42,138 bases of DNA from a virus (taxonomy: Duplodnaviria > Caudoviricetes): positions 1-42,138 of IMG/VR virus record IMGVR_UViG_3300014818_000015; one strand, given 5' to 3'. Made by a program: the position numbers and the translations under genes. The notes beneath the pieces were generated by a model. The model did not search any database and had not been told where the DNA came from. It was given only the letters and a program-made list of their open reading frames with translations. Positions 1-41,979 of this stretch are shown here, in pieces (the first letter of the stretch is position 1; each line of letters opens with the position of its first letter).

Positions 1-3000
1 TTCTGTTGCAGAAGATATGCCAGTGATATGACCGTACGTATCAAGAGTGATATCTTGAATATAGGTTCTTCCTGAGTTATTCACAGAAGCTTGTGTGGAT
101 GTATCAGAATGAGCAATGGCTATGGTATCACCAGCTGTACCAGTAACTGTAATTCCTCCGCCGCCGTTTAGGTACAACGTATCATTGTTAATATCTGCAA
201 CGGCAGTATCACCTGTTGATGGATTTATATTCTTAAAGATGTTCTGGCTTGAACCTTTATCGGTATTTGCGTATGTTACCGTAGTATTTCCTGCCTGATC
301 CGCTGTAAATGTTCCGCTTCCGCTCATACCGCTTCCGGAACTTAATGTCAAAGTACCGTTATTAGGTGCAGTTGTATTAGTAGCTCCATTTGCAACGTTT
401 AGAGCTGTTCTTACTTGAGCCGGGGTCGAAGGACGCATATAATTATCGGTCCCAGTATCAACCTGGGTCATCATATAACCAATACTTGCGTTGGTTGTAT
501 CATATTCTGATCTAAACAACCTAGCGCTAATATCACCACTTGTATCTCTATAAGCAATAGTACTAGCGGTAGAAGCTGTTGTTGCATTAGACGTTACAGT
601 AAATGTCGTATTAGATGATTGATTAGCCGTTGCATCCATTGAACCACTTAAACCAAAGCCTGATGTACGACCATAAATTTGTCCATTACCTATTGATACT
701 GTAGCTGAGTTTATCGATGTGATATGTCCGTATGTATCAAGTGTGATGTCTTGAATAAAATCATTACTTGAGTTATCCACTGAAGCTTGAGTAGATGTAT
801 CAGCGTGAGATATTGTTAAAACATCATCTGCCGTAAAGTTAGATGTTATTCCGCCACCAGATGCAATCGTAAGGGTATCGCCTGAAGTAATACTATATTG
901 TGTGGTATCGCCATCTTTAATATTCCAGGATACGTAATTATCTAGTGTTGGTAGCGTAGCAGTAGATGCTGTTGCTCCTGTGACATGGCCATAGGTATCA
1001 AAGGTTAACGCCATATCCTGAATAAAGGTGTGCCCTGAATTATTCTGGCTTAAGTTAGCAACACTAGAAGTATTAGCATGAGATATAGTAATAATATCAT
1101 CCGCTGTGCCGACTGTATTAATTCCTCCCCCAGCTGTAAGGTATAGGCTATCACTGTTATTATCAGCAGAAGCAGTGATCCCGGTTGATGGAATCACATT
1201 CTTAAAGATATTCTGGCTTGAACCTTTATCGGTGTTAGTAACTGCAAAGGTCAAATCAAACGGATCAGCATCAGAACCAGGTGTTACGTCAGACCAATTA
1301 ATATCGATTGACGCACCACTTCCTGCTCCTTCTACGAATTTCCATTCTTTACCTTGATTAATCGTAACTTCTGTACCATCACCATCTTCTACCTGGAATG
1401 ATCTCGTGTATATATTATCTAAATCGTAAGAAGTGCCTGATGTAACATGACCTTGAGGATTAACTGTGATGTTTGCAACTACGATACCGTCGGAACCAGC
1501 GCCGCCTATAACACCAGCCGTTCCTACATTATCATGGTTAAACGTAATGGTATCACTAGATCTAACTGATGTTATTGCTGTACCACCTGATAGATTAAGT
1601 GTGTCATTATTGATATTAGCGGTTGCTGTACCACCTGAGTTAGCAGTAACGTTCTTAAAGATTGCTTGACTTGAACCTTTATCGCCGTTAGTTATTGTAA
1701 CATCAATATCATTACCGCTTGTTGATGTTACAATACCAATGCCACTTCCGTTAACGAAATCTAGGTTATTGCTCGATGCGAACGTGTTACCTTCGATAGT
1801 CGGTGAAACCAACGTATCTTCTGATAATATTAATGATCCATCTGCTTCCCATCGATCAGTAGCAAAGTTATATACTATCGAATGAGCTCCGGTTATTCCT
1901 GAAGCTGGATTAGAATGAACTCCTGCGAATGGTAATGTTTCAAAACCAAATCCGCCTGTTGTAGGTTCTGTTGATCCTAGATTGCTACCTGTAAGTATTA
2001 AGGTGTCCTCAACTTCTAATGTTTCTACGTTTAGCGTAGTTTGCGTTCCGTTAACTATTAGGTTGCCGCCGATAGTAAGATCACCCGTTGTTACAACGGT
2101 ATCCCCTGATCCATTACCTAGAGTAGTGTTTCCGTTAACACCAAGGTTACCAGCAAGAGTTATAGAATCATTTAAGTTAACCGTCTTAACTGCGCCTTCA
2201 GTGTCCGCTCCAGTAACTGTAATATTTGTTCCAGAGTTAACGTCTGCTACATAGTTGCCTGTAGTGTCAGTACCAAGAGCAACCGAGTTAGGCTGTATTG
2301 TTAATGCAAAAGACTTATCAGCTAAGTTAGTAATTGTTCCTGATCCTGTAACGTCACCTGTGAAGGTAAGCGTTGGATCGTTAACATTGAAGTCAAAGTT
2401 TTCGTTAGTAGAATCCCATGAAACGTTAATCCCTGATTCTGCGTTACTAGATATTAGGTCTTTAGCATTATAGAAAGTTACTATATCAGTTGTGTGACTA
2501 ATACCTGAATCATTTAAACCCTGTAATTGCCAAGCCCTTGCTGGATTAGTTGCTGAAGTTCCATCCGCGTGGTTTTCGTCCCATTGTAATCTAACGTCAG
2601 AGGTATCATCTATTTCTGTTACGTGTTGTCTATCTACACTAAATCCTTGTAGCGGTACGTTGCCGTCTACCTCTAAAAACGATACAGAGAAGATGTTAAT
2701 ATTGGATGTGCTACCAGGTAACAAAAGACTTGAGTTAGAAAGATCTAACGTAGTACCCGTTCCGAAAGTCATGGTATCAGCATTTGTTCCAGCATCAACA
2801 AATTGTACGTTACCTTTAAGCTGAAGCTGACTTGTTATAACCTGTTGTGTTGTGCTTGTAAGATCTACTTTTTCTGTTTCAAGTTCTACTATAGCTGACG
2901 AGATGTTCGTAGCGCTAAGACCCGTGAAATTCATGTCACCAATCTGGGTTTCGTGTTCCGCGATTGCGCCGCTTACTGTACTCGCTGTAGTACCCATTGT

Positions 3001-5124
3001 AGCGGAGGTAACATCGCCAAGCTCATCATGTAATTGAACCAAAGCACCTGTTATAGTATCGGTATCTCCATCAATGCCCGTGATATCAACATCGCCAATC
3101 TGATCTTCATGTTCTCTGATAGCTGTAACAACAGTAGTAGCACTGGTACCCATATTGGTATCGGTAACATCACCAAGCTCATCGTGCAATTGAACCAAAG
3201 CCCCCGTTATAGTATCGGTATCTCCATCAATGCCCGTGATATCAACATCACCGATTTGATCTTCATGTTCTTTGATAGCTGTAACAACAGTAGTAGCACT
3301 GGTACCCATTGTAGCGGAGGTAACATCACCAAGCTCATCTGTGATTTCTTTGATAGCTGTAACGACGGTGCTAGCATCGGTACCCATTGTAGCGGAGGTA
3401 ACATCACCAAGCTCATCGTGCAATTGAACCAAAGCCCCCGTTATAGTATCGGTATCTCCATCAATGCCCGTGATATCAACATCACCGATTTGATCCTCAT
3501 GCTCTCTGATAGCTGTAACGACGGTGCTAGCATCGGTACCCATATTGGTATCGGTAACATCGCCTATATCTACAGTGATCTCATCAACCGCAGATTTAAA
3601 ATCCTCAGCATCTAAGACAGGGAAATCGACACCAGATACGAATAATTCTGTGTGTAACTCATTAATAGAATCTACAATAGATGTCTTATCTGCGGTTAGT
3701 AAAGATGTCCTGGATCTTTTTGTTCCGCCTGGAGCATTGAATAAATCTGCTTCTAATTCATTAACTGCTTGAGTTAAATCCGTTCCTGAAGTGTGTAGAG
3801 TTAATGAACCAACTTCACTGTGCAACTGATTAAGAGCACCTGTGATCGTATCTGATTCTGAATCGATATCATCAATGCTTTCATTACCGATCTGATCCTC
3901 ATGTTCTCTTACAGCAGAGGTTAAGTTAGATGCTGTTGTGCCTAAGTTACCTGCAGTAACATTACCAACTTCTGTGTGTAATTGATCAAGCGCGCCCGTG
4001 ATGTTATTAGTACCTGAAGAAATTCCAGTAATATTAACATTACCAATCTGGGTTTCGTGTTCCGCGATTGCGCCGCTTACTGTACTCGCTGTAGTACCCA
4101 TTGCAGCTGATGTTATAGTACCTAATTCAGCATCATGCTCATTGATAGCAGTAACTAGGCTAATAGCAGCAGTTGTTAAGTTTTCAGTAATACCGACATC
4201 ATCTTGTAATTCGTTAAGAGCTGCAACAATATCCATAGAGAATATCTGAATATCCTCTGATCCGCTTGCTGGTGAATTTAGTTCAATAGTATGACCGAAG
4301 GTGTTATCTAATAGAGTAATTGCTCCATGATTAGCAGCTGGTATTGTATCTGTACTTCCCAAAAGTCTAACAATAGATCCTGCTGAAAACGTTCCACTAA
4401 CTGTTTTTAATTTTAAAGAGGTTGGTGTACATTCTAAAACCGTACCCCAGAAAGCGCTATTGGCTTCAACGCCGGACTGTGTAGATTGGGATGTACCGTG
4501 ATATACAGTAGAACCCTCGGTGAATTTACCGACTGAAGGAGAACCTGTTAAAGTAACAGAAGCTCCATGGTTAGCAATATGGAAGCCATTAACGTCTGTA
4601 ATACTTTGGGAAACTTCAACTGAATCCCTGTATACTCTAACTACACCTATCGGATAAGATTCAGCTATAATTCTAACTACGTTACTAGAAGATATGGTAT
4701 CAGCTGCAACGTTAATATCAATTGAAGAAGAAAAACTACCAGTACCGTTTTTCATTAAGATCTTTTCAGAACTTACAGAAATGATTGTAGCTGAATAAGA
4801 TGGTGCGCCAGAAGCACCCTGAAACAATGTAACACCAGGTACGAAAGATGCTGGAATAGAGGGTGAGTCTACCAGTATGATATACCCGCCGGTGTTATCA
4901 ATGGTGTTTTCAGGACTTAGCTCAAAACGAATAGTTTTTGAGTCATTATCTAATCCTGTTAATATGTTTATGCCAGAAGCAGGATTAGCAAAGTTGTATG
5001 TTTTATCCGACAAACTATTATTTAATTGATTATTATCCCCGAGGTGTAGAGATACTTCGTTTGAAAGCTTTCTCCATTGTTCTAGGGTATTTGACTTTAT
5101 TACTCTCGTTTCTTTGTTCGCCAT
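1..5124 (-). CDS. Long tail fibre / fibre-like protein, 3'-truncated by window edge (>1700 aa)
   Basis: Absent from the ORF track because it has no stop in the window. ATG at 5124 overlaps the upstream stop (TAATG). Starts MANKETRVIKSNTLEQWRKLSNE; the segments I translated are in frame, down to base 1 (IQDITLDTYGHITGISSATE). Contains 26-aa repeats and DITLDTYGHIT / DKGSSQNIFKN fibre repeats; lies downstream of baseplate genes. Confidence 0.85.
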   Translation of the reverse strand, partial: MANKETRVIKSNTLEQWRKLSNEVSLHLGDNNQLNNSLSDKTYNFANPASGINILTGLDNDSKTIRFELSPENTIDNTGGYIILVDSPSIPASFVPGVTLFQGASGAPSYSATIISVSSEKILMKNGTGSFSSSIDINVAADTISSSNVVRIIAESYPIGVVRVYRDSVEVSQSITDVNGFHIANHGASVTLTGSPSVGKFTEGSTVYHGTSQSTQSGVEANSAFWGTVLECTPTSLKLKTVSGTFSAGSIVRLLGSTDTIPAANHGAITLLDNTFGHTIELNSPASGSEDIQIFSMDIVAALNELQDDVGITENLTTAAISLVTAINEHDAELGTITSAAMGTTASTVSGAIAEHETQIGNVNITGISSGTNNITGALDQLHTEVGNVTAGNLGTTASNLTSAVREHEDQIGNESIDDIDSESDTITGALNQLHSEVGSLTLHTSGTDLTQAVNELEADLFNAPGGTKRSRTSLLTADKTSIVDSINELHTELFVSGVDFPVLDAEDFKSAVDEITVDIGDVTDTNMGTDASTVVTAIREHEDQIGDVDITGIDGDTDTITGALVQLHDELGDVTSATMGTDASTVVTAIKEITDELGDVTSATMGTSATTVVTAIKEHEDQIGDVDITGIDGDTDTITGALVQLHDELGDVTDTNMGTSATTVVTAIREHEDQIGDVDITGIDGDTDTITGALVQLHDELGDVTSATMGTTASTVSGAIAEHETQIGDMNFTGLSATNISSAIVELETEKVDLTSTTQQVITSQLQLKGNVQFVDAGTNADTMTFGTGTTLDLSNSSLLLPGSTSNINIFSVSFLEVDGNVPLQGFSVDRQHVTEIDDTSDVRLQWDENHADGTSATNPARAWQLQGLNDSGISHTTDIVTFYNAKDLISSNAESGINVSWDSTNENFDFNVNDPTLTFTGDVTGSGTITNLADKSFALTIQPNSVALGTDTTGNYVADVNSGTNITVTGADTEGAVKTVNLNDSITLAGNLGVNGNTTLGNGSGDTVVTTGDLTIGGNLIVNGTQTTLNVETLEVEDTLILTGSNLGSTEPTTGGFGFETLPFAGVHSNPASGITGAHSIVYNFATDRWEADGSLILSEDTLVSPTIEGNTFASSNNLDFVNGSGIGIVTSTSGNDIDVTITNGDKGSSQAIFKNVTANSGGTATANINNDTLNLSGGTAITSVRSSDTITFNHDNVGTAGVIGGAGSDGIVVANITVNPQGHVTSGTSYDLDNIYTRSFQVEDGDGTEVTINQGKEWKFVEGAGSGASIDINWSDVTPGSDADPFDLTFAVTNTDKGSSQNIFKNVIPSTGITASADNNSDSLYLTAGGGINTVGTADDIITISHANTSSVANLSQNNSGHTFIQDMALTFDTYGHVTGATASTATLPTLDNYVSWNIKDGDTTQYSITSGDTLTIASGGGITSNFTADDVLTISHADTSTQASVDNSSNDFIQDITLDTYGHITSINSATVSIGNGQIYGRTSGFGLSGSMDATANQSSNTTFTVTSNATTASTASTIAYRDTSGDISARLFRSEYDTTNASIGYMMTQVDTGTDNYMRPSTPAQVRTALNVANGATNTTAPNNGTLTLSSGSGMSGSGTFTADQAGNTTVTYANTDKGSSQNIFKNINPSTGDTAVADINNDTLYLNGGGGITVTGTAGDTIAIAHSDTSTQASVNNSGRTYIQDITLDTYGHITGISSATE
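2938..3570 (-). repeat. In-frame tandem array of 78-bp (26-aa) modules in the fibre gene
   Basis: AATTGAACCAAAGC recurs at 3032, 3188 and 3422 (spacings 156 and 234 = 2x78 and 3x78). Modules GDVT(SAT/DTN)MGT..TVVTAI.EHEDQI and GDVDITGIDGDTDTITGALVQLHDEL are near-identical at DNA level. Confidence 0.9.
4042..4103. repeat. 62-bp exact direct repeat of 2938-2999
   Basis: ACCAATCTGGGTTTCGTGTTCCGCG...GTAGTACCCATTG is present at both sites, 1104 bp (368 codons) apart. Confidence 0.9.
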
Positions 5125-5360
5125 TATTTACTCGCTAATTCTTTTAGAAGGTTTTTGATATCCTGCATATCCTTTTTGAGAAGCTTAATATCCAGACTTT
5201 GCTGAATATCGAGTTCCTCCTTTAACTTCAGTGTCGCGATCTGAGAACGTCTCTGCAGGAATGCATTGTTATTAGTATTTATGATAGCATTAGAAGCGTT
5301 ATCCCTAATTAGCCCTGGATTATCCTCCACGGCTATGATTTCTTTTTTCTTTCTGGCCAA
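5124..5360 (-). CDS. Small hypothetical protein of the T4-like tail module
   Basis: 78 aa, GLIRD..SNAIINT motif and C-terminal coiled coil; AGGAG upstream; translationally coupled to the fibre gene. Confidence 0.75.
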   Translation of the reverse strand: MARKKKEIIAVEDNPGLIRDNASNAIINTNNNAFLQRRSQIATLKLKEELDIQQSLDIKLLKKDMQDIKNLLKELASK

Positions 5361-29114: not shown

Positions 29115-29170
29115 GAACAGTTTTATGACATGCTCAGGTCGATCCCAGGTAGCGGGAAATAGGGAAGCTA
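29115..29170 (-). ncRNA. Candidate structured RNA (hairpin plus compact H-type pseudoknot) at the 3' end of the late operon
   Basis: Minus strand GAC-CT-GAGCA-T-GTC-ATAAAAC-TGTTC (GAC/GTC and GAGCA/TGTTC), preceded by a GTAGC...GCTAC stem. Confidence 0.4.
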
Positions 29171-29674
29171 CTGATCAGCTAATGGGTTATCCAATGCTCT
29201 TTGTAGAGTGGCATTCAGACGATCTTCAAGCTCTTTGATTTTTGTATCGGAGTTGTTTCTTAATGATGATGCCTTTGATTCATAATCCGATTGTAGTGTA
29301 TCTCTTTTAGCATCGAATCTAGTACTTGCTTTGTCTATCATCTGACGGACTTTCTCTTCCGACTCACGAACCATATCTTCTATCCGATCCGCTTGTTTTT
29401 CAATACCCATAATATCATCACGCAATCCCGATTTAATATCACGAGTATATTCGATTGCATCATTGAGCTTAGATTCAATAACATCGTTACGAGCATCAAT
29501 AGATCCTACATCGATATTCTCTACGATTTCTTTCATACTTCTATAGTCAGCATAAAACTCAAAACCAGCCCACGCAGTTCCGCCTAGAGTAGATAGTGCA
29601 GTAAGTAATGCAAACATCTTACCACCCTTAAATGTCATACCGCCGAATTCTAATTCTGTCTTTTCATCGCTCAT
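29168..29674 (-). CDS. Membrane-anchored coiled-coil protein
   Basis: N-terminal hydrophobic helix followed by long heptad-like helices. Confidence 0.75.
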   Translation of the reverse strand: MSDEKTELEFGGMTFKGGKMFALLTALSTLGGTAWAGFEFYADYRSMKEIVENIDVGSIDARNDVIESKLNDAIEYTRDIKSGLRDDIMGIEKQADRIEDMVRESEEKVRQMIDKASTRFDAKRDTLQSDYESKASSLRNNSDTKIKELEDRLNATLQRALDNPLADQ

Positions 29675-29681
29675 ATATTAA

Positions 29682-29829
29682 TTCTCAAACTGCATCATCC
29701 TAAGTTTAGCAACCTCTGCTTGTAACTTCTGAACTTCCAGTCTTTTCTTTGTTAGTTCTCAAACTGCATCATCCTAAGTTTAGCAACCTCTGCTTGTAAC
29801 TTCTGAACTTCCAGTCTTTTCTTTGTTAG
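29682..29829. repeat. Exact 74-bp tandem duplication
   Basis: 29682-29755 equals 29756-29829; TTA(A/G)TTCT microhomology at the junctions. Confidence 0.92.
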
Positions 29830-30162
29830 TTCTAGTTGATATAACGTATTGCAATTAAGTCGTTCTTTTGGTGCACCTATAGGAATAGTTATCTTTGCGT
29901 ACACGCCAATGTCTTTCATGAAATCCTTATTTGAGACATTAGTATCGTTAATATTAGCGTAAGGATCCGATTGGTTAATGACACCCATCACACCAAATTC
30001 TACGTTAGTCGAAGAACCTATTGCCATCCTGCAATCCAATTGACCTGCTCGAATACTATCCGAAGCATAACTTTGAGGACTTGATGGCATCGATAAGTTA
30101 AGGGAGTTGGATTCCCCATACGCCGAAGAACTCATTAACAATAACAACATGATATATCTCAT
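29752..30162 (-). CDS. Exported protein with two Cys and C-terminal coiled coil
   Basis: Signal peptide MRYIMLLLLMSSSAYG. Confidence 0.75.
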   Translation of the reverse strand: MRYIMLLLLMSSSAYGESNSLNLSMPSSPQSYASDSIRAGQLDCRMAIGSSTNVEFGVMGVINQSDPYANINDTNVSNKDFMKDIGVYAKITIPIGAPKERLNCNTLYQLELTKKRLEVQKLQAEVAKLRMMQFEN

Positions 30163-30165
30163 ACA

Positions 30166-30546
30166 TTACTCTTTTATTCTAGAACAAATTCGTGAAGATG
30201 GTATTGCAAGTTTGTTACGCGCAGTCGATATTATTTTAGATTTACTACAGATATACCTTGCACGTGACGCATCCTTTTCTCTTACAAAAATCTCTACTCG
30301 TTTTCGGTCAAGATATTCTAAGTTAGTAACTCTATCGTTAGTGACAAATGGTACACGTTTCCAATTCGTATCATAAACTGACATTTCATAAAAACGTATA
30401 TCCTTTCGTTTATTTAATAACACCATGACTGTTGATACTACGCCATTAACATAAGACGGAGTTAGTTTAGGATACGTTGGTGTCCATTGATGGGCAAAAG
30501 AAGACCCACTAATAGACACCAATAATAATAAAATAACAAACCGCAT
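30166..30546 (-). CDS. Exported protein, possible pilus-chaperone-like Ig fold
   Basis: Signal peptide ending SFA; alternating beta pattern; C-terminal Cys pair (YICSKS...RICSRI). The fold is inferred. Confidence 0.6.
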   Translation of the reverse strand: MRFVILLLLVSISGSSFAHQWTPTYPKLTPSYVNGVVSTVMVLLNKRKDIRFYEMSVYDTNWKRVPFVTNDRVTNLEYLDRKRVEIFVREKDASRARYICSKSKIISTARNKLAIPSSRICSRIKE

Positions 30547-31049
30547 TACTTAGCAATACACTCAGTTTCTATCGTAGCACGATATGTACCACCAGGAAAA
30601 GATTTACCGTAACCGTATGTTGCGGTAGAACCAACCTTGAACCATGCGCTGCCAGATAGAGTCAAATCAAACTCAGTAACATTTTCATACTGAACCTTAC
30701 TTGTTTCAAAAACTGACATTGTGGTGTCTGACATTTCTACTAACTCAGCAGAACCAGTCCAGTTAACTACATCATTCAGTGCTGGCGATGTAGTAAAATC
30801 TATAGGGTATGATATCACACCTTTATAAGTAGACCCTTCGAGTATATCAAAACGGATCAGTGGCATAACACCACCATCGGCAGGTAATGTACTTAACACG
30901 TCTGTTGTTGGGTTACCGTAGACACCTTGGGAGTCAGTTGTAATGACACATTTAGATTCTATGTTACCCGTGATTTGAGTACCAGCTGAAGCGGTCATTG
31001 CTGAATTTGCAAGTAACATTGCACTTAGTACGACTAGTTTTTTGAACAT
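30546..31049 (-). CDS. Exported protein, possible fimbrial/pilin-like subunit
   Basis: Signal peptide ending ASA; ITGNIESKC near the N-terminus and PGGTYRATIETEC at the C-terminus, reminiscent of chaperone-usher pilins. Confidence 0.6.
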   Translation of the reverse strand: MFKKLVVLSAMLLANSAMTASAGTQITGNIESKCVITTDSQGVYGNPTTDVLSTLPADGGVMPLIRFDILEGSTYKGVISYPIDFTTSPALNDVVNWTGSAELVEMSDTTMSVFETSKVQYENVTEFDLTLSGSAWFKVGSTATYGYGKSFPGGTYRATIETECIAK

Positions 31050-31073
31050 ATTATGTTCCTCTTATTATGGTTA

Positions 31074-31955
31074 TTACGGGTTATCATACTGTAATTCAAC
31101 TAATTGATTATGTAATAATTGTTGTGCAAGACCCACTCGTTTTGCTTTCTTACTACTTGGTAGTTTCCCATCATCCAACGTAATGGTTTCGTTATAGTGT
31201 CCCCCATCTATCGAACCTGTGTATGACGTTGGTATAATACTTAACGCCATTAATTCTGCGTGTGTTTGTTCAGCATTCGAATCCATTGATAATGCGTTAC
31301 CATTAACACTTAATGCGAGTTCAAGTCTTAATTGTCGCACTTTTCGCACTTTATTACGGATAGATTTTTTACGATCTATCTCATTTTGTTCTTCGTCTTC
31401 CAATTCATCATATTCATTGCTAGTCGATGAATCAACTAAAGCCGATTCAGCATCAAGGAAACTCAAATCAACTTCATATATGTCTGGCATTGGTTGTACA
31501 TATCCAACACAGCTAGGACTTGTCTGCGGATCGAAACATGGATCGAACTTATAGTTGTAAACGACTCGTGCATTTTCTACAGCACCAGTACCTTCGACAA
31601 CAATAGAACCATCACCCCATCTATCAATAAGTACATTAGGTACCGGAACAATTTTATTTATGGTATTACTTGGTTTACCACTCCAATCATCCTTTTCACG
31701 AAAGATGTAACCAGTACCAGCTGCATCTTCGTTCTGCACATAAACAACCATATCATCTTCTGTCTTCTTTACAGTAGAATAACGGTATACCACACTAGAC
31801 ACCTCTAACCCTAATTGTTGAGGTAGTATGTTCTGCATGACCCAGTTATAACCTACATCCGACTTGTTTGTCGTATTTCCGTAGATTGTATCAGAGTAAG
31901 AGTAGAAGGAGTAAGACGCTAGCAACACCAGCCAAACTCCAAGTAGTTTTCTCAT
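31074..31955 (-). CDS. Exported hypothetical protein
   Basis: Probable start ATG 31955 gives signal peptide MRKLLGVWLVLLASYSFYSYS; beta-rich N-domain, DPCFDPQTSPSC motif, acidic linker. Confidence 0.75.
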   Translation of the reverse strand: MRKLLGVWLVLLASYSFYSYSDTIYGNTTNKSDVGYNWVMQNILPQQLGLEVSSVVYRYSTVKKTEDDMVVYVQNEDAAGTGYIFREKDDWSGKPSNTINKIVPVPNVLIDRWGDGSIVVEGTGAVENARVVYNYKFDPCFDPQTSPSCVGYVQPMPDIYEVDLSFLDAESALVDSSTSNEYDELEDEEQNEIDRKKSIRNKVRKVRQLRLELALSVNGNALSMDSNAEQTHAELMALSIIPTSYTGSIDGGHYNETITLDDGKLPSSKKAKRVGLAQQLLHNQLVELQYDNP

Positions 31956-32460
31956 CTTTAGTAGCCTCTTTATCTTTTTCAGTCTCAGGGAGTTTATTGC
32001 CACTTGCTATATGATTCTGCCATCCAAGTTTTGCTGCTTCACCAATCAGTCCATCATATGGACAAGGGGTACCAGCATTCATCATAGCATCAAATACACG
32101 TTGATCTTGACACATAACTGACACAGCAGCAACCTTCATACCCATATCATATAGGGTCTTAGCGTTCTTTAGTTTTTCACAGTTGTAGTCAGTAAATTGT
32201 GTACCCATAGACATACCGAGGATTTGTGTCTGTACAGCACCGGAGATACCGAACGTACACAGATCAGAATTCGATGTGTTTATTGTAGGTGATATAGCTG
32301 ACGGTGGCGGAGACTTCAATGTCGTCGTAGTACTTGATTGTGTGGTGACTTTACTATCGGTGACTGAATCTGTGCGGATCGTATCATCAACAACGGTTTC
32401 AGCAAAACCCAATGAACATGTCACTAACGTAATAAATAAAAGTATGGCTCTCAAAAACAT
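31891..32460 (-). CDS. Exported Cys-rich protein with C-terminal membrane anchor
   Basis: Signal peptide, Thr-rich linker, PPPSAISP, four Cys in the mature part, C-terminal hydrophobic tail; GAGG RBS. Confidence 0.8.
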   Translation of the reverse strand: MFLRAILLFITLVTCSLGFAETVVDDTIRTDSVTDSKVTTQSSTTTTLKSPPPSAISPTINTSNSDLCTFGISGAVQTQILGMSMGTQFTDYNCEKLKNAKTLYDMGMKVAAVSVMCQDQRVFDAMMNAGTPCPYDGLIGEAAKLGWQNHIASGNKLPETEKDKEATKDEKTTWSLAGVASVLLLLLLL

Positions 32461-32502
32461 TATATTATCCTCTCAATTAAAATTATACATGGATGTGTCT
32501 AT

Positions 32503-32510
32503 TATTTATA
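32503..32510 (-). promoter_or_regulatory. Late promoter TATAAATA heading the six-gene exported-protein operon
   Basis: Exact consensus immediately after the phaZ stop. Confidence 0.75.
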
Positions 32511-33710
32511 CTAATCGTTATGCTTATTAATAAACTCAGTAATACTAGGTGCGATCTTTTCACTGAAAGCAGAGCCACTAAAAGTACCAAAGTGACCCAC
32601 ACCATCAAAAACTTCATGCAACTTATCTTGCTTTGGAATATTAGAACATAAAGATTGTGCTGCTTCGGTTTGCCCTAATGCACAAATATCATCATTTTTT
32701 CCTTCAATGGTATGTAACGGAGTATTCTTTATTGCCGATAAATCCACTAGTTCGCCTTTGTAAGTCATCTTATCATTGGCTAAATCTTGATTAAGAAAAA
32801 CACGGTCAATAGTTTCTATATAGAAGTCAGCATCAAGATCTAACACTGCTAAGTATTCGTCATAGAACTTACGATGTTTAATACAGTCATCCTCTTTTCC
32901 ATGATAAACATGGCCAATATAATCATTATGTTTCTTTATATGGCTTTCTATATTCATTGATAAGAACGATGATAACTGAACGAATCCCGGATATACTTTT
33001 CTTCCTGCACCAGGATAGCGATCAGGCACTGTCATAATTACGTTGTTTTCAAACCAGCTTAAATCTTTATCACTGGCATATCTATTGAGATCATTGGGGT
33101 TAATACTTGTATCAATAGGACCTGCGATTAGAGTAAGAGATTTAGGTGCACATTTATCTTTAGCTTTAGCCATTACAGCGGTTGCTATTAGAGCTTGTAC
33201 AGTTGGTTGACATACAGCAAGTATATGGGTATCTTCACCAATGACATGCATAAAATCTATAATATAACTTACGTAATCATCAAAACCGAACGTGCCTTCA
33301 GATAATGGAACATGCTTAGCATCTAACCAATCAGTAAGGTAAACGTCATGGTCTGTAACTAAACGTTCTATCGTAGCTTTTAACAATGTTGCATGATGAC
33401 CAGAAAGTGGTGCAATTATTAATAATTTAGGACGTTGAATATCATCATCTTGTTTGAAGTGTATTAGGTTACAGAAAGGCTTTGTCGCAATAATCTGTTC
33501 ATCAACTAATACACTTGTAATGTCAAACGGTTGTTTGTCGTAAACTTTAGTGTGATGGAATGCTGTGTCAAGCGCAGCACCGATGCCTTTACCGAGTGGA
33601 GTCTTCTCGTATGGATTATATGGATTACTCAATACTGTTTGACTTAATCCAATAACCCCATTAATTAGTTCTGCTGAACGGCTATAAAGATCGTAAGTTT
33701 TGTATATCAT
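32511..33710 (-). CDS. phaZ: Intracellular polyhydroxyalkanoate (PHB) depolymerase
   Basis: APLSGHHATLL, DVYLTDW.DA, AVCQP (catalytic Cys box), GRKVYPGFVQL, FYDEYLAVLDL, EGKNDDI, GVGHFGTFSG: the full motif set of the PhaZa/PHB_depo_C family. Confidence 0.93.
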   Translation of the reverse strand: MIYKTYDLYSRSAELINGVIGLSQTVLSNPYNPYEKTPLGKGIGAALDTAFHHTKVYDKQPFDITSVLVDEQIIATKPFCNLIHFKQDDDIQRPKLLIIAPLSGHHATLLKATIERLVTDHDVYLTDWLDAKHVPLSEGTFGFDDYVSYIIDFMHVIGEDTHILAVCQPTVQALIATAVMAKAKDKCAPKSLTLIAGPIDTSINPNDLNRYASDKDLSWFENNVIMTVPDRYPGAGRKVYPGFVQLSSFLSMNIESHIKKHNDYIGHVYHGKEDDCIKHRKFYDEYLAVLDLDADFYIETIDRVFLNQDLANDKMTYKGELVDLSAIKNTPLHTIEGKNDDICALGQTEAAQSLCSNIPKQDKLHEVFDGVGHFGTFSGSAFSEKIAPSITEFINKHND

Positions 33711-33736: not shown

Positions 33737-34180
33737 TTAAAGATTTTCAAGTCTTTCCATAAGTCTTTCGGCTCTATTGCCAACTTGGCGGAACCAAATG
33801 CTATCTCTACCTTCAGGTGCAGCACCAGACCAATTTCCTTCTAGGATATTTTTATTAAAATTCTTGAACTTAGTTAAGCGCGGACGACCAAGATTGAATA
33901 ACATGTTAACAAGTACTTCTTGAACAGCACCAGGGAAACCTTCCCATGCTTCACCATATAGTACCACACATTCTGAGATTGCAGTATCAAGGTCTTTTTC
34001 GAAACACTCTCTGACTCTTTCTTCAGATACTTCGGTGCCAACATCTTGACCAAACTCTGCATCTTTTTCAAGAACTAAATGGCCTACACCAAATGTGGCG
34101 TATCCAAGATGGTCTTCGTAGATGGCATATACAACGCCTTCGTCAATTTTTAACTGTTCGTAAATACTTTCGCGATTCAT
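33737..34180 (-). CDS. Lysozyme / endolysin (T4 e-like, GH24)
   Basis: LKIDEG...IYEDHLGYATFGVGHL, NMLFNLG, DS.WFRQVGNRAERL. Confidence 0.92.
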   Translation of the reverse strand: MNRESIYEQLKIDEGVVYAIYEDHLGYATFGVGHLVLEKDAEFGQDVGTEVSEERVRECFEKDLDTAISECVVLYGEAWEGFPGAVQEVLVNMLFNLGRPRLTKFKNFNKNILEGNWSGAAPEGRDSIWFRQVGNRAERLMERLENL

Positions 34181-35153: not shown

Positions 35154-35228
35154 TGGAGCGAGTTGAGAGGATCGAACTCTCATCAAAAGGTTGGAAACCT
35201 CTTATAATAGCCATTATACGAAACTCGC
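35154..35228 (-). tRNA. tRNA-Gly(TCC)
   Basis: GCGAGTT acceptor stem, anticodon loop TTTCCAA, GTTCGAT T-loop, encoded CCA. Confidence 0.93.
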
Positions 35229-35234
35229 TAAATG

Positions 35235-35311
35235 TGGCGGAGTGGACGGGACTCGAACCCGCGACCTCTTGCGTGACAGGCAAGCATTCTAACCAACTGA
35301 ACTACCACTCC
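35235..35311 (-). tRNA. tRNA-Asp(GTC)
   Basis: GGAGTGG acceptor stem, CTGTCAC loop, GTTCGAG, encoded CCA. Confidence 0.95.
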
Positions 35312-35339
35312 GTAAAACTTTTTCTTATTGTATATATGT

Positions 35340-35412
35340 CTCCTCAACCTGGACTTGAACCAGGGACAAACGGATTAACAGTCCGTTGCTCTACCAACTG
35401 AGCTATTGAGGA
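35340..35412 (-). tRNA. tRNA-Asn(GTT), CCA not encoded (ACA instead)
   Basis: TCCTCAA acceptor stem, CTGTTAA loop, GTTCAAG T-loop. Confidence 0.93.
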
Positions 35413-35436
35413 ATAAACTTTTTCTTATTGTATATA

Positions 35437-35513
35437 TGGCACATCCTGCAGGACTCGAACCTGCTACCTACGGGTTAGAAACCCGTTGCTCTATCCAGAT
35501 GAGCTAAGGATGC
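35437..35513 (-). tRNA. tRNA-Arg(TCT)
   Basis: GCATCCT acceptor stem, ACGGG-TTTCTAA-CCCGT anticodon arm, encoded CCA. Confidence 0.93.
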
Positions 35514-37939: not shown

Positions 37940-39577
<1,638 letters not shown>

Positions 39578-40423: not shown

Positions 40424-41074
40424 TTATTCTCGTTCTAACAATAACTCATCATTCATAATAATCAACCTTTTGATCTTGATACGTTGTTGTGCAACTAGTT
40501 CATTTGATTTTGCCAACGCAATAGTTAATTCATCTACTCGTGTATCGACATCTTCGCTCTCAGTGCTTTCACTGTATGTAACTTCTAGCTCATCATAGAC
40601 TCTATGTAAGTTTTCAAACTTCGCTTCGTTAACAGATATCAAACCAGATAATAGATTATCTATCTTGCTGAAGAAAGTCTGAGTCTGCATGCCGATAAAA
40701 TTATTGTCTTCAGCAATGTATTCTCGCACAGCTTCAATATCACCGATGACATCCCAACAGGTCATGATGTGGGTATCTAAGTTATCTAATTCATCATAAT
40801 GCATATTATTATTTCCTTTTAGTCTTTCTACTTCGTTAATATAAGTTTGTTTGTCTTCACCAGTTTTATTAAAGAATTCACCAACCCAATGTTCAGCAGC
40901 ATAAGCATCATAAGCAGCATAAGCAGCATCAGCAGCAGCATCAACAGCATCATAAGCATCAACAGCATCATAAGCAGCATAAGCAGCGGATTTCCAATTC
41001 GCTTCTTTTTCTGCTTGTGTGAATAGCTCAGGATTATCTAAACTTCTCATAATGAATAATATATGTTTATTCAT
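40424..41074 (-). CDS. Hypothetical protein: MNKHIL/Ala-rich domain joined to a second domain with an internal start at 40804
   Basis: AAYAAYDA repeats; internal AGGAAATAATAATATG. Confidence 0.7.
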   Translation of the reverse strand: MNKHILFIMRSLDNPELFTQAEKEANWKSAAYAAYDAVDAYDAVDAAADAAYAAYDAYAAEHWVGEFFNKTGEDKQTYINEVERLKGNNNMHYDELDNLDTHIMTCWDVIGDIEAVREYIAEDNNFIGMQTQTFFSKIDNLLSGLISVNEAKFENLHRVYDELEVTYSESTESEDVDTRVDELTIALAKSNELVAQQRIKIKRLIIMNDELLLERE

Positions 41075-41077
41075 GAT

Positions 41078-41332
41078 TTAATACTCCATCATTTCATTAA
41101 TTTGTTTGATATAAAGCTCAGTTATAGCGTGCTTGTTATCTGTTAAGGATTCTTCCGCAGCCAATCTTAGTTCATGCCCTATTAACATATCCGTGACCTC
41201 ATCCAGTGAGTAATACTCATCATTGATTAGCACTTCTGTACCTTTAGCCATTATACTCAGCAACTCACTAGCTGATAAGCTTTCAGGCTCATCACAGTGG
41301 ATTGCTATTTGTTCTGAAATTGGATCGATCAT
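41078..41332 (-). CDS. Hypothetical acidic protein
   Basis: Likely start MIDPIS, overlapping the upstream stop (ATGA). Confidence 0.65.
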   Translation of the reverse strand: MIDPISEQIAIHCDEPESLSASELLSIMAKGTEVLINDEYYSLDEVTDMLIGHELRLAAEESLTDNKHAITELYIKQINEMMEY

Positions 41333-41979
41333 TGTGTTTTTTCCCATTTTAATAGCAAGTCCATTAACATTTTAGTATTCAGCACATGTGCTGCCACTCT
41401 TGCTGCTTCACTTGCTGTTGCCCTCGCTGCTTCCCATGCTGCTGCCCTTGCTGACCTTGCTGCTGCCCTTGCTGCACTTGCTGCTGACCATACTTCTCCA
41501 GTTGCTGCTGCCCTCGCTGCTTCCCATGCTGCTGCCCTTGCTGCTTCACTTGCTGCTGCACTTGCTGCACTTGCTGCACTTGCTGCTGACCATACTTCTC
41601 CAGTTGCTGCTGCCCATGCTGCTGCCCATGCTGCTTCCCTTGCTTTATCAAGTTCTTCTGCTGTTATTTCACTTCTAGCAAACGCTTGTGAAGCTTCAAT
41701 TGCTAGTCTTGGTCTTTTATCCTTAGGTTGATCCTTTTCAAAAATATCAATAACAGTTAAGGCATAGTCACAACCTAATAAACGTAAATCTATTCTCTGC
41801 TGCTTACTAAACTGGTCATATATTTCCGCTATCAACCACCAAACATCAGCCCAACCGTTAGAAGTTAAACACTGTGAGAGTGTAACTTCCTTATCACCAT
41901 GCGCTTTAATAAATGTTTCGTAACCGCTTGAACAAGCTTTTAACGCTTTAAGCTCTATTTTATTTGTTGATATTTTCAT
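41329..41979 (-). CDS. Ala-rich repeat phage protein (Imm5-like DxRPRxAI motif)
   Basis: LKACSSGY, DKRPRLAIEA...GAGGT RBS; AAWAAAWAA repeats. Confidence 0.75.
   Translation of the reverse strand: MKISTNKIELKALKACSSGYETFIKAHGDKEVTLSQCLTSNGWADVWWLIAEIYDQFSKQQRIDLRLLGCDYALTVIDIFEKDQPKDKRPRLAIEASQAFARSEITAEELDKAREAAWAAAWAAATGEVWSAASAASAASAAASEAARAAAWEAARAAATGEVWSAASAARAAARSARAAAWEAARATASEAARVAAHVLNTKMLMDLLLKWEKTQ

What the first reader, a model, noticed from the sequence alone, without database searches (positions are those of the whole stretch)
29168..32510. Late six-gene operon of exported proteins resembling a phage-encoded fimbrial/surface-assembly system
Seen: six tightly packed co-oriented genes behind an exact TATAAATA. 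Five have N-terminal signal peptides and paired Cys; the sixth is a TM-anchored coiled coil; the first also has a C-terminal anchor. One 167-aa product has the ITGxIxxxC...GxYxAxI pattern of chaperone-usher pilins, and its coupled neighbour (TAATG) looks like a small Ig-fold chaperone. Established: canonical T4 virion proteins assemble in the cytoplasm without signal peptides, so these should act in the host envelope. Inference: a lytic phage building an envelope or surface structure late in infection (adhesion or aggregation to new hosts, superinfection exclusion, lysis control). No usher-sized gene is present, so any assembly route would be non-canonical.
Basis: partly seen in the sequence, partly recalled or inferred. 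Interest (0 to 1): 0.85.

Follow-up and report, generated by a model that had tools for sequence, protein, structure and literature searches.

The report
Phage usher-less pilin-chaperone export operon
An uncultured marine T4-like phage carries six tightly linked genes for proteins predicted to be exported, two of which are predicted to dock like a pilus subunit and half of its chaperone; the same three-gene core sits in cultured phages and in rhizobial chromosomes without the usual usher pore, so it is likely an undescribed small fibre-building system that phages have borrowed.

Summary
The six genes (A-F) are real. Their order is unbroken in 128 of 128 viral loci (103 complete, 25 cut by locus ends). 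The operon joins two modules. In C-D-E, C is predicted to be an Ig-like subunit with a conserved, unpaired, FimA-like N-terminus, and D folds like domain 1 of PapD/FimC/SafB only. A C:D model passed (0.82, best control 0.00), with D's last strand lying in C's groove. E is a Cys-clamped amphipathic beta-hairpin plus coiled coil, fused to an OmpA cell-wall domain in Vibrio. The triad also occurs in cultured Vibrio, Klebsiella and Erwinia phages. E is in 38 of 251 genomes of Nitratireductor's family, 36 of which have no usher hit; all 21 bacterial loci read are C-D-E, often with extra pilin copies. A, F and a B-like gene occur without C-D-E in cultured pelagiphages. Best reading: an usher-less fibre assembled by donor-strand exchange and anchored in the outer membrane by E. 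Polymerisation, surface exposure and purpose are inferred. A 74-bp repeat between E and F is likely an assembly artefact. Nine paper searches found no description. The scan reported this module before on other DNA.

The parts
32503..32510 (-). T4-type late promoter motif TATAAATA, 43 nt before gene A
   Evidence: present before A in 23 of 49 related clusters
31891..32460 (-). Gene A: predicted exported protein with a Gly-rich amphipathic segment between Cys68 and Cys94, helices, and a C-terminal hydrophobic tail; occurs with F in cultured pelagiphages
   Evidence: (phrog_20531, unknown function)
31074..31955 (-). Gene B: predicted exported protein with a beta-rich N-terminal part, a CxxPxxxPxC motif, an acidic stalk and a conserved C-terminal part; putative cargo or tip
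   Evidence: C-terminal part matches the gene after A in HTVC115P (E 1.6e-6 in a 4-sequence search); no fold lead
30546..31049 (-). Gene C: pilin-like Ig-fold subunit with a conserved N-terminal extension and a Cys pair linking the first and last strands
30166..30546 (-). Gene D: single-domain chaperone-like protein (PapD domain-1 fold), coupled to C by TAATG
29752..30162 (-). Gene E: predicted exported protein, Cys-clamped amphipathic beta-hairpin plus coiled coil; putative outer-membrane anchor or pore subunit
29678..29833 (.). 74-bp tandem duplication at the E/F junction; likely an assembly artefact of this contig
29168..29674 (-). Gene F: predicted inner-membrane-anchored coiled coil ending in a conserved NPL motif

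Best explanation
The operon likely encodes a minimal, usher-less fimbria-like assembly system in which the one-domain chaperone D is predicted to complete the Ig fold of subunit C, C likely polymerises through its N-terminal extension, and oligomers of E likely anchor or pass the fibre at the outer membrane of the infected cell. Shown: gene order, wide conservation, the C-D-E triad as an independent unit in bacteria, plasmids and unrelated phages, and its lack of association with ushers. Predicted: the folds of C and D and their donor-strand complex. Inferred: Sec export, donor-strand exchange, outer-membrane location and ring formation of E, and the roles of A (second hairpin protein), B (cargo or tip) and F (inner-membrane tether) as an older phage envelope module into which the triad was inserted. 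The likeliest benefit is remodelling of the infected cell's surface (blocking competing phages, or attaching to neighbouring cells or particles); this was not tested.
For: D model pLDDT 89.5; the top 8 Foldseek hits are PapD, DraB, FimC and Caf1M; VIA Z 10.7 (rmsd 2.6, 98 aligned) to FimC 2-115 and 10.5 to SafB 14-130. C model pLDDT 94.9 with residues 1-11 unpaired although I4 and G6 are conserved. The wide C profile hits a 179-aa, 14-chain PDB entry with a FimA-like N-terminus (10ss_a, E 0.008; deposited under an unrelated name, the FimA likeness is my reading), and C hits NCBIfam FimF at E 0.002. C:D complex 0.82 against best control 0.00; runs agree in at least 86% of contacts; partner pLDDT at least 87; the mark was reached by 116 of 157 solved and 2 of 215 mismatched pairs. 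D 93-105 lies between C 10-24 and C 132-145 with residue numbers rising together along C's last strand, the geometry of donor-strand complementation. Bacterial loci: C-D-E in order in 21 of 21, with more than one C copy in 18 of 21; a triplicated cassette among metabolic genes in Nitratireductor soli. Only 2 of 38 E-positive genomes have a PF00577 usher hit, against 22 of 251 overall. E shows alternating hydrophobic columns over two 10-11-residue strands between invariant Cys and is fused to an OmpA peptidoglycan-binding domain in 2 of 65 distant homologues scanned, one from Vibrio pectenicida.
Against: C's structural matches are middling and not pilin-specific: Foldseek TM 0.44-0.47 to CfaB, a type 1 tip subunit and the PapG pilin domain, with MSCRAMM domains ranking higher; best VIA Z 7.6, no chain at Z 8, and no chaperone-usher pilin among the top 48 rows of the wide search. 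D's fold is also shared with MSP/ASH domains (Z 9.9). The C:D pass may reflect likeness to solved chaperone-subunit complexes. D lacks domain 2, and phage D has Tyr where rhizobial D has Arg near the N-terminus (equivalence to PapD Arg8 is recalled). No structure or oligomer of E was modelled; a two-strand subunit would need about twelve copies to match an usher-sized barrel (usher size recalled). One rhizobial and some minor C copies have a short or missing extension motif. Lysis-type genes are frequent neighbours. No data on expression or location.
Confidence: 0.48

Rival explanations
1. The proteins form a complex that stays inside the envelope: a stable C:D unit or short periplasmic polymer tied to peptidoglycan and both membranes by E, A and F, stiffening the envelope or masking phage receptors from within, with nothing exposed outside.
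For: No usher and no shown pore; E-OmpA fusions point to a cell-wall tether; F spans from the inner membrane; the second chaperone domain is missing.
Against: Bacterial operons carry several divergent C copies, as pilus operons do; the N-terminal extension is conserved from phages to rhizobia.
Confidence: 0.27
2. The block is an accessory lysis module, with F as an inner spanin-like rod and A or E as outer-membrane partners.
For: An annotated endolysin, spanin or hemolysin/holin family lies within 3 kb in 14 of 59 clusters, and a small membrane-type gene of no named family in 26 of 59; a lysozyme lies 1.3 kb upstream in the window; in Vibrio phage Bennett a holin and endolysin follow.
Against: No lipobox in A-E and no spanin profile hit for F; the triad sits among metabolic genes in bacteria; 15 of 49 clusters use a sigma-70 consensus; separate Rz-like spanins occur beside some copies; no background rate was measured for lysis neighbours. 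The reading fits A-B-F better than C-D-E.
Confidence: 0.13
3. The products end up on the virion: C is matured in the periplasm and attached at lysis as a head or tail appendage.
For: Late motif; in four Vibrio phages the triad directly follows two long fibre-like genes, and in pVco-14 it lies between the capsid and tail genes.
Against: Signal peptides on all members; the triad lies among tRNA or accessory genes in the Erwinia, Klebsiella and T4-like Vibrio phages; chromosomal copies have no phage genes in view.
Confidence: 0.1

Closest known systems
Chaperone-usher pathway (PapD-PapK, FimC-FimA, SafB-SafA, Caf1M-Caf1, DraB, CfaA-CfaB, CsuC-CsuA/B)
   Same: Exported incomplete Ig subunit with an N-terminal extension; PapD domain-1 fold; predicted donor-strand complementation; several subunit paralogues per bacterial operon; a Cys pair in the chaperone's last strands as in FGL chaperones (that feature is recalled).
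   Different: Chaperone has one domain; no usher in the locus or in 36 of 38 carrier genomes; the subunit Cys pair joins the first and last strands; obligatory small partner E; no Pfam match for any member; carried by lytic phages.
Usher-free donor-strand polymers (Bacillus TasA; seen only as search listings)
   Same: Donor-strand polymerisation without an usher.
   Different: Gram-positive, no PapD-type chaperone; no sequence link was tested.
Prophage FimU-like proteins of Pseudomonas phages (PMC12952977, abstract and outline read)
   Same: A phage-encoded pilus-type protein that alters the cell surface; shown there to block competing phages.
   Different: A single type IV minor pilin joining a host pilus in lysogens; here a subunit comes with its own chaperone and partner in lytic phages.
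Two-component spanins (Rz/Rz1)
   Same: F has the outline of an inner spanin (membrane anchor plus periplasmic coiled coil).
   Different: No lipoprotein among A-E, no profile hit, and four or five extra exported proteins.

Membership tests
Chaperone-usher pili | Subunit is an Ig-like sandwich whose missing strand is supplied by the chaperone | tested here: met
   In prediction only:
Chaperone-usher pili | Subunit belongs to a known pilin family by sequence or structure | tested here: inconclusive
   FimF E 0.002, far below cut-off; TM 0.44-0.47; VIA Z under 8
Chaperone-usher pili | N-terminal extension with alternating hydrophobic residues and Gly before the first Cys | tested here: met
   Loose pattern matched in 31 of 33 rows, 2 of them in the signal peptide rather than the extension; unpaired in the model
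Chaperone-usher pili | Two-domain PapD-type chaperone | tested here: not met
   D is 108 residues mature and aligns to domain 1 only; all aligned homologues are of similar length; longer fused forms were not searched
Chaperone-usher pili | Cleft residues (PapD Arg8, Lys112) that hold the subunit C-terminus | tested here: inconclusive
   Arg in rhizobial D, Tyr in phage D; Lys/Arg two after the last Cys in both; equivalence recalled, not aligned
Chaperone-usher pili | Outer-membrane usher | tested here: not met
   None in the window; 36 of 38 E-positive genomes without a PF00577 hit (genomes may be incomplete)
Chaperone-usher pili | Surface fibre built by donor-strand exchange | not testable with these tools
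   Needs microscopy and biochemistry
Two-component spanin / lysis cassette | Outer-membrane lipoprotein partner | tested here: not met
   No lipobox in A-F
Two-component spanin / lysis cassette | Inner-membrane anchor plus periplasmic coiled coil of spanin family | tested here: inconclusive
   Architecture fits F; no spanin PHROG hit
Two-component spanin / lysis cassette | Fixed linkage to holin and endolysin | tested here: inconclusive
   14 of 59 clusters with annotated lysis families within 3 kb; only 31 of 59 have 3 kb on both sides; no background
T4-type late operon | TATAAATA upstream of the first gene | tested here: met
   transcription itself not tested

The most novel reading that the evidence does not exclude
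C-D-E is a distinct class of Gram-negative pilus system in which a ring of small beta-hairpin subunits (E) replaces the 800-residue usher and a one-domain chaperone suffices. Rhizobial bacteria use it as an ordinary fimbria, and lytic phages of several unrelated lineages have captured it so that infected cells grow phage-encoded fibres before they lyse.
Probability: 0.3. Interest if true: 0.92.

Novelty: new variant of a known kind. Interest (0 to 1): 0.76.

Why it matters
An usher is held to be essential for chaperone-assisted pilus assembly in Gram-negative bacteria. A three-gene version without one would be a new route across, or into, the outer membrane and a model for how the pathway arose. 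The module is very common in marine viral contigs (about 1000 IMG/VR stretches estimated for E; 1970 protein clusters for D) and is annotated only as hypothetical. It would show lytic phages investing in host-surface construction. It is testable now, because it occurs in about 180 records of cultured Vibrio phages and in cultured rhizobial bacteria.

Tried and rejected
Pfam gave no hit for A-E and only coiled-coil noise for F. PHROGs gave only unknown-function families. None of 128 D homologues matched a PapD Pfam family. Profile searches of PDB sequences with phage C, D, B and wide D gave nothing meaningful. No direct tblastn hit of window C in cultured phages; the link came only through distant E homologues. 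A-E paralogy, suggested by their shared Cys-hairpin-Cys-helix outline, was not supported (hhalign probability 4.8). ESM Atlas: only unnamed viral clusters for E and scores of 0.77 for B's N-terminal part. The 'OmpA family' label on the Roseobacter phage CRP-810 A homologue has no Pfam support. B similarity to the gene after A was not detected in 3 of 4 annotated phages. Class-wide samples found the E family in only 2 of 301 and 2 of 351 genomes around N. soli and 1 of 400 around a gammaproteobacterial bin (the seed itself; one more genome unscored), so the bacterial range is patchy or below that search's reach. Ten of 11 genome-collection hits were metagenome bins carrying phage-type genes of the operon, taken as binned phage contigs (inference). 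No RNA holder was listed. A wide-profile viral scan could not be run. Papers: nine searches, seen as listings, none describing this module; only PMC12952977 was opened (abstract and outline). No supplements were read, so virion proteomics tables of the cultured carrier phages could bear on the virion reading. Subscription journals are not covered.
Full report
Setting. The window is a whole 42-kb viral record of a T4-like phage, with baseplate, gp32, ligase and GroEL genes. It is held by marine metagenome runs. I name the six genes A to F in transcription order.

Observation. The six minus-strand ORFs, their tight packing, the TAATG coupling of C and D, the paired cysteines and the TATAAATA at 32503-32510 are all present. 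Signal peptides were judged from hydrophobicity and conservation only. Two corrections: B starts at the ATG at 31955, and the 74-bp duplication between E and F is skipped by contigs of 4 of 4 runs from 3 studies, so it is likely an assembly artefact.

Conservation. Among 128 IMG/VR loci fetched with C or E, 103 hold all six genes in order and 25 lack genes only at a locus end; none breaks the order. The loci are redundant and biased to close relatives; they collapse to 59 clusters at 90% identity of E. Of 49 clusters with upstream sequence, 23 have TATAAATA and 15 others a TTGACA-TATAAT consensus, each against about 0.02 expected, and none has both. The block is therefore late in T4-like carriers but probably not in all.

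Folds. D (pLDDT 89.5) matches domain 1 of pilus chaperones: PapD, DraB, FimC and Caf1M fill the top 8 Foldseek rows, and VIA gives Z 10.7 to FimC and 10.5 to SafB, with MSP domains close behind at 9.9. C (pLDDT 94.9) is an Ig-like sandwich whose first 11 residues are unpaired yet conserved. Its matches are weaker: TM 0.44-0.47 to CfaB, a type 1 tip subunit and PapG, below MSCRAMM domains, and VIA Z at most 7.6. Sequence leads point to the extension: FimF at E 0.002 and a FimA-like PDB chain at E 0.008. The C:D complex scored 0.82 against a best control of 0.00, with at least 86% contact agreement and partner pLDDT at least 87; the mark was reached by 116 of 157 solved and 2 of 215 mismatched pairs. 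D's last strand (93-105) runs along C's last strand between C's first and last strands, as in donor-strand complementation. The pass may reflect likeness to solved complexes.

C-D-E is an independent unit. A scan of species genomes with E found a triplicated C-D-E cassette among metabolic genes of Nitratireductor soli; profile comparison links its C and D to the phage ones (probability 93.6 and 93.3). E occurs in 38 of 251 sampled genomes of that family. In 21 of 21 bacterial loci examined (19 of those genomes, one from the wider class, one Mesorhizobium plasmid) the order is C-D-E, with extra C copies in 18. Only 2 of the 38 genomes have an usher hit, against 22 of 251 overall (Fisher p 0.54). 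Distant E homologues led to 181 records of cultured Vibrio phages, many near-identical. Bennett, pVco-14, D60 and K449 carry C-D-E with profile support. Vibrio phage 1.081.O, Klebsiella phage YC1 and Erwinia phage pEp_SNUABM_01 carry E between two exported genes in D-E-C order; there D and C are recognised mainly by size, signal peptide and terminal Cys, with a weak D profile hit in one of three. A Vibrio nigripulchritudo plasmid has D and E behind two C-like genes.

E. Across 76 diverse homologues the invariant residues are two Cys and a Gly. Between the Cys lie two 10-11-residue segments with alternating hydrophobic columns, and a coiled coil follows. Two of 65 distant homologues end in an OmpA peptidoglycan-binding domain, one from Vibrio pectenicida. 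This places E's C-terminus at the cell wall and is consistent with the hairpin sitting in the outer membrane. Oligomerisation and pore formation are inference; E was not modelled.

A-B-F. A has homologues in 15 phage records, including six pelagiphages. In the four regions opened, A is followed by an F-like gene ending in NPL, with no C, D or E. The gene after A shares B's C-terminal part in HTVC115P; similarity was not detected in the other three. I read A-B-F as an older phage envelope module into which the triad was inserted. Its job is the least clear, and a lysis-related role is plausible for it.

Lysis test. There is no background, no lipobox and no spanin hit for F, so this is suggestive only.

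Mechanism. Most likely: Sec export; D stabilises C; C's extension displaces D and links subunits; an E oligomer holds or passes the polymer at the outer membrane; F and A tie the phage version across the envelope and B is a cargo or tip. I put this at 0.48, an envelope-internal complex at 0.27, lysis accessory at 0.13 and virion appendage at 0.10.

Relation to what is known. It works like the chaperone-subunit step of the chaperone-usher pathway but is not a member: the two-domain chaperone and the usher tests fail. Nine paper searches found no description; the nearest functional precedent is prophage FimU-like proteins (PMC12952977, abstract and outline only). The scan has reported this operon and the triad several times on other DNA; those notes are not independent support. 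The rhizobial operons, their extra pilin copies and the usher non-association did not appear in the notes I saw, and the rhizobial E had no look-alike among earlier findings.

Noticed in passing
window 32511-33710 (-): Intracellular PHB depolymerase gene (PF06850, E 6e-80) directly upstream; its stop codon abuts the late motif. A possible auxiliary metabolic gene and a hint that the host stores PHB.
   Followed up: no
window 37940-39547 (-): Phage-borne GroEL chaperonin.
   Followed up: no
window 33737-34180 (-): Stand-alone T4-type lysozyme 1.3 kb upstream of the operon.
   Followed up: partly
window 31891-31955: A's hydrophobic tail and B's signal peptide are written on the same 65 nt in different frames; a similar overlap recurs in homologues.
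   Followed up: partly
window 35154-35513 (-): Four tRNA genes: Gly, Asp, Asn, Arg.
   Followed up: no
window 1-5130: No closed long ORF; 78/156/234-nt tandem repeats at 2990-3543. Probably a long fibre gene running off the contig end; not translated.
   Followed up: no
window 40424-41979 (-): Two related 216-aa ORFs with Ala-rich repeats; one has a weak Imm5-like match.
   Followed up: no
window 31335: A 9-nt in-frame stretch in B is absent from 3 of 4 runs laid.
   Followed up: no
L172, L173, L177, L180: In four Vibrio phages the triad follows two long genes without signal peptides (345-836 aa and about 800 aa) and precedes a small lipoprotein-like gene.
   Followed up: partly
L175:8392-9114; L149:1586-4012: EAL-domain genes lie beside the triad on the Vibrio and Mesorhizobium plasmids, a possible link to c-di-GMP control of adhesion.
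   Followed up: no
L174:7938-8651: An E-OmpA-type fusion in Vibrio aquimaris stands without C or D in view and appears broken near its start.
   Followed up: no
L092:3465-3782; L079:5983-6447; L036:5841-6173: Recurrent neighbours: a 105-aa membrane-type protein with an EF-hand-like start (24 of 59 clusters), a 154-aa gene often inserted between E and F (11 clusters), and a cyanophage-type outer-membrane barrel gene (5 clusters).
   Followed up: partly
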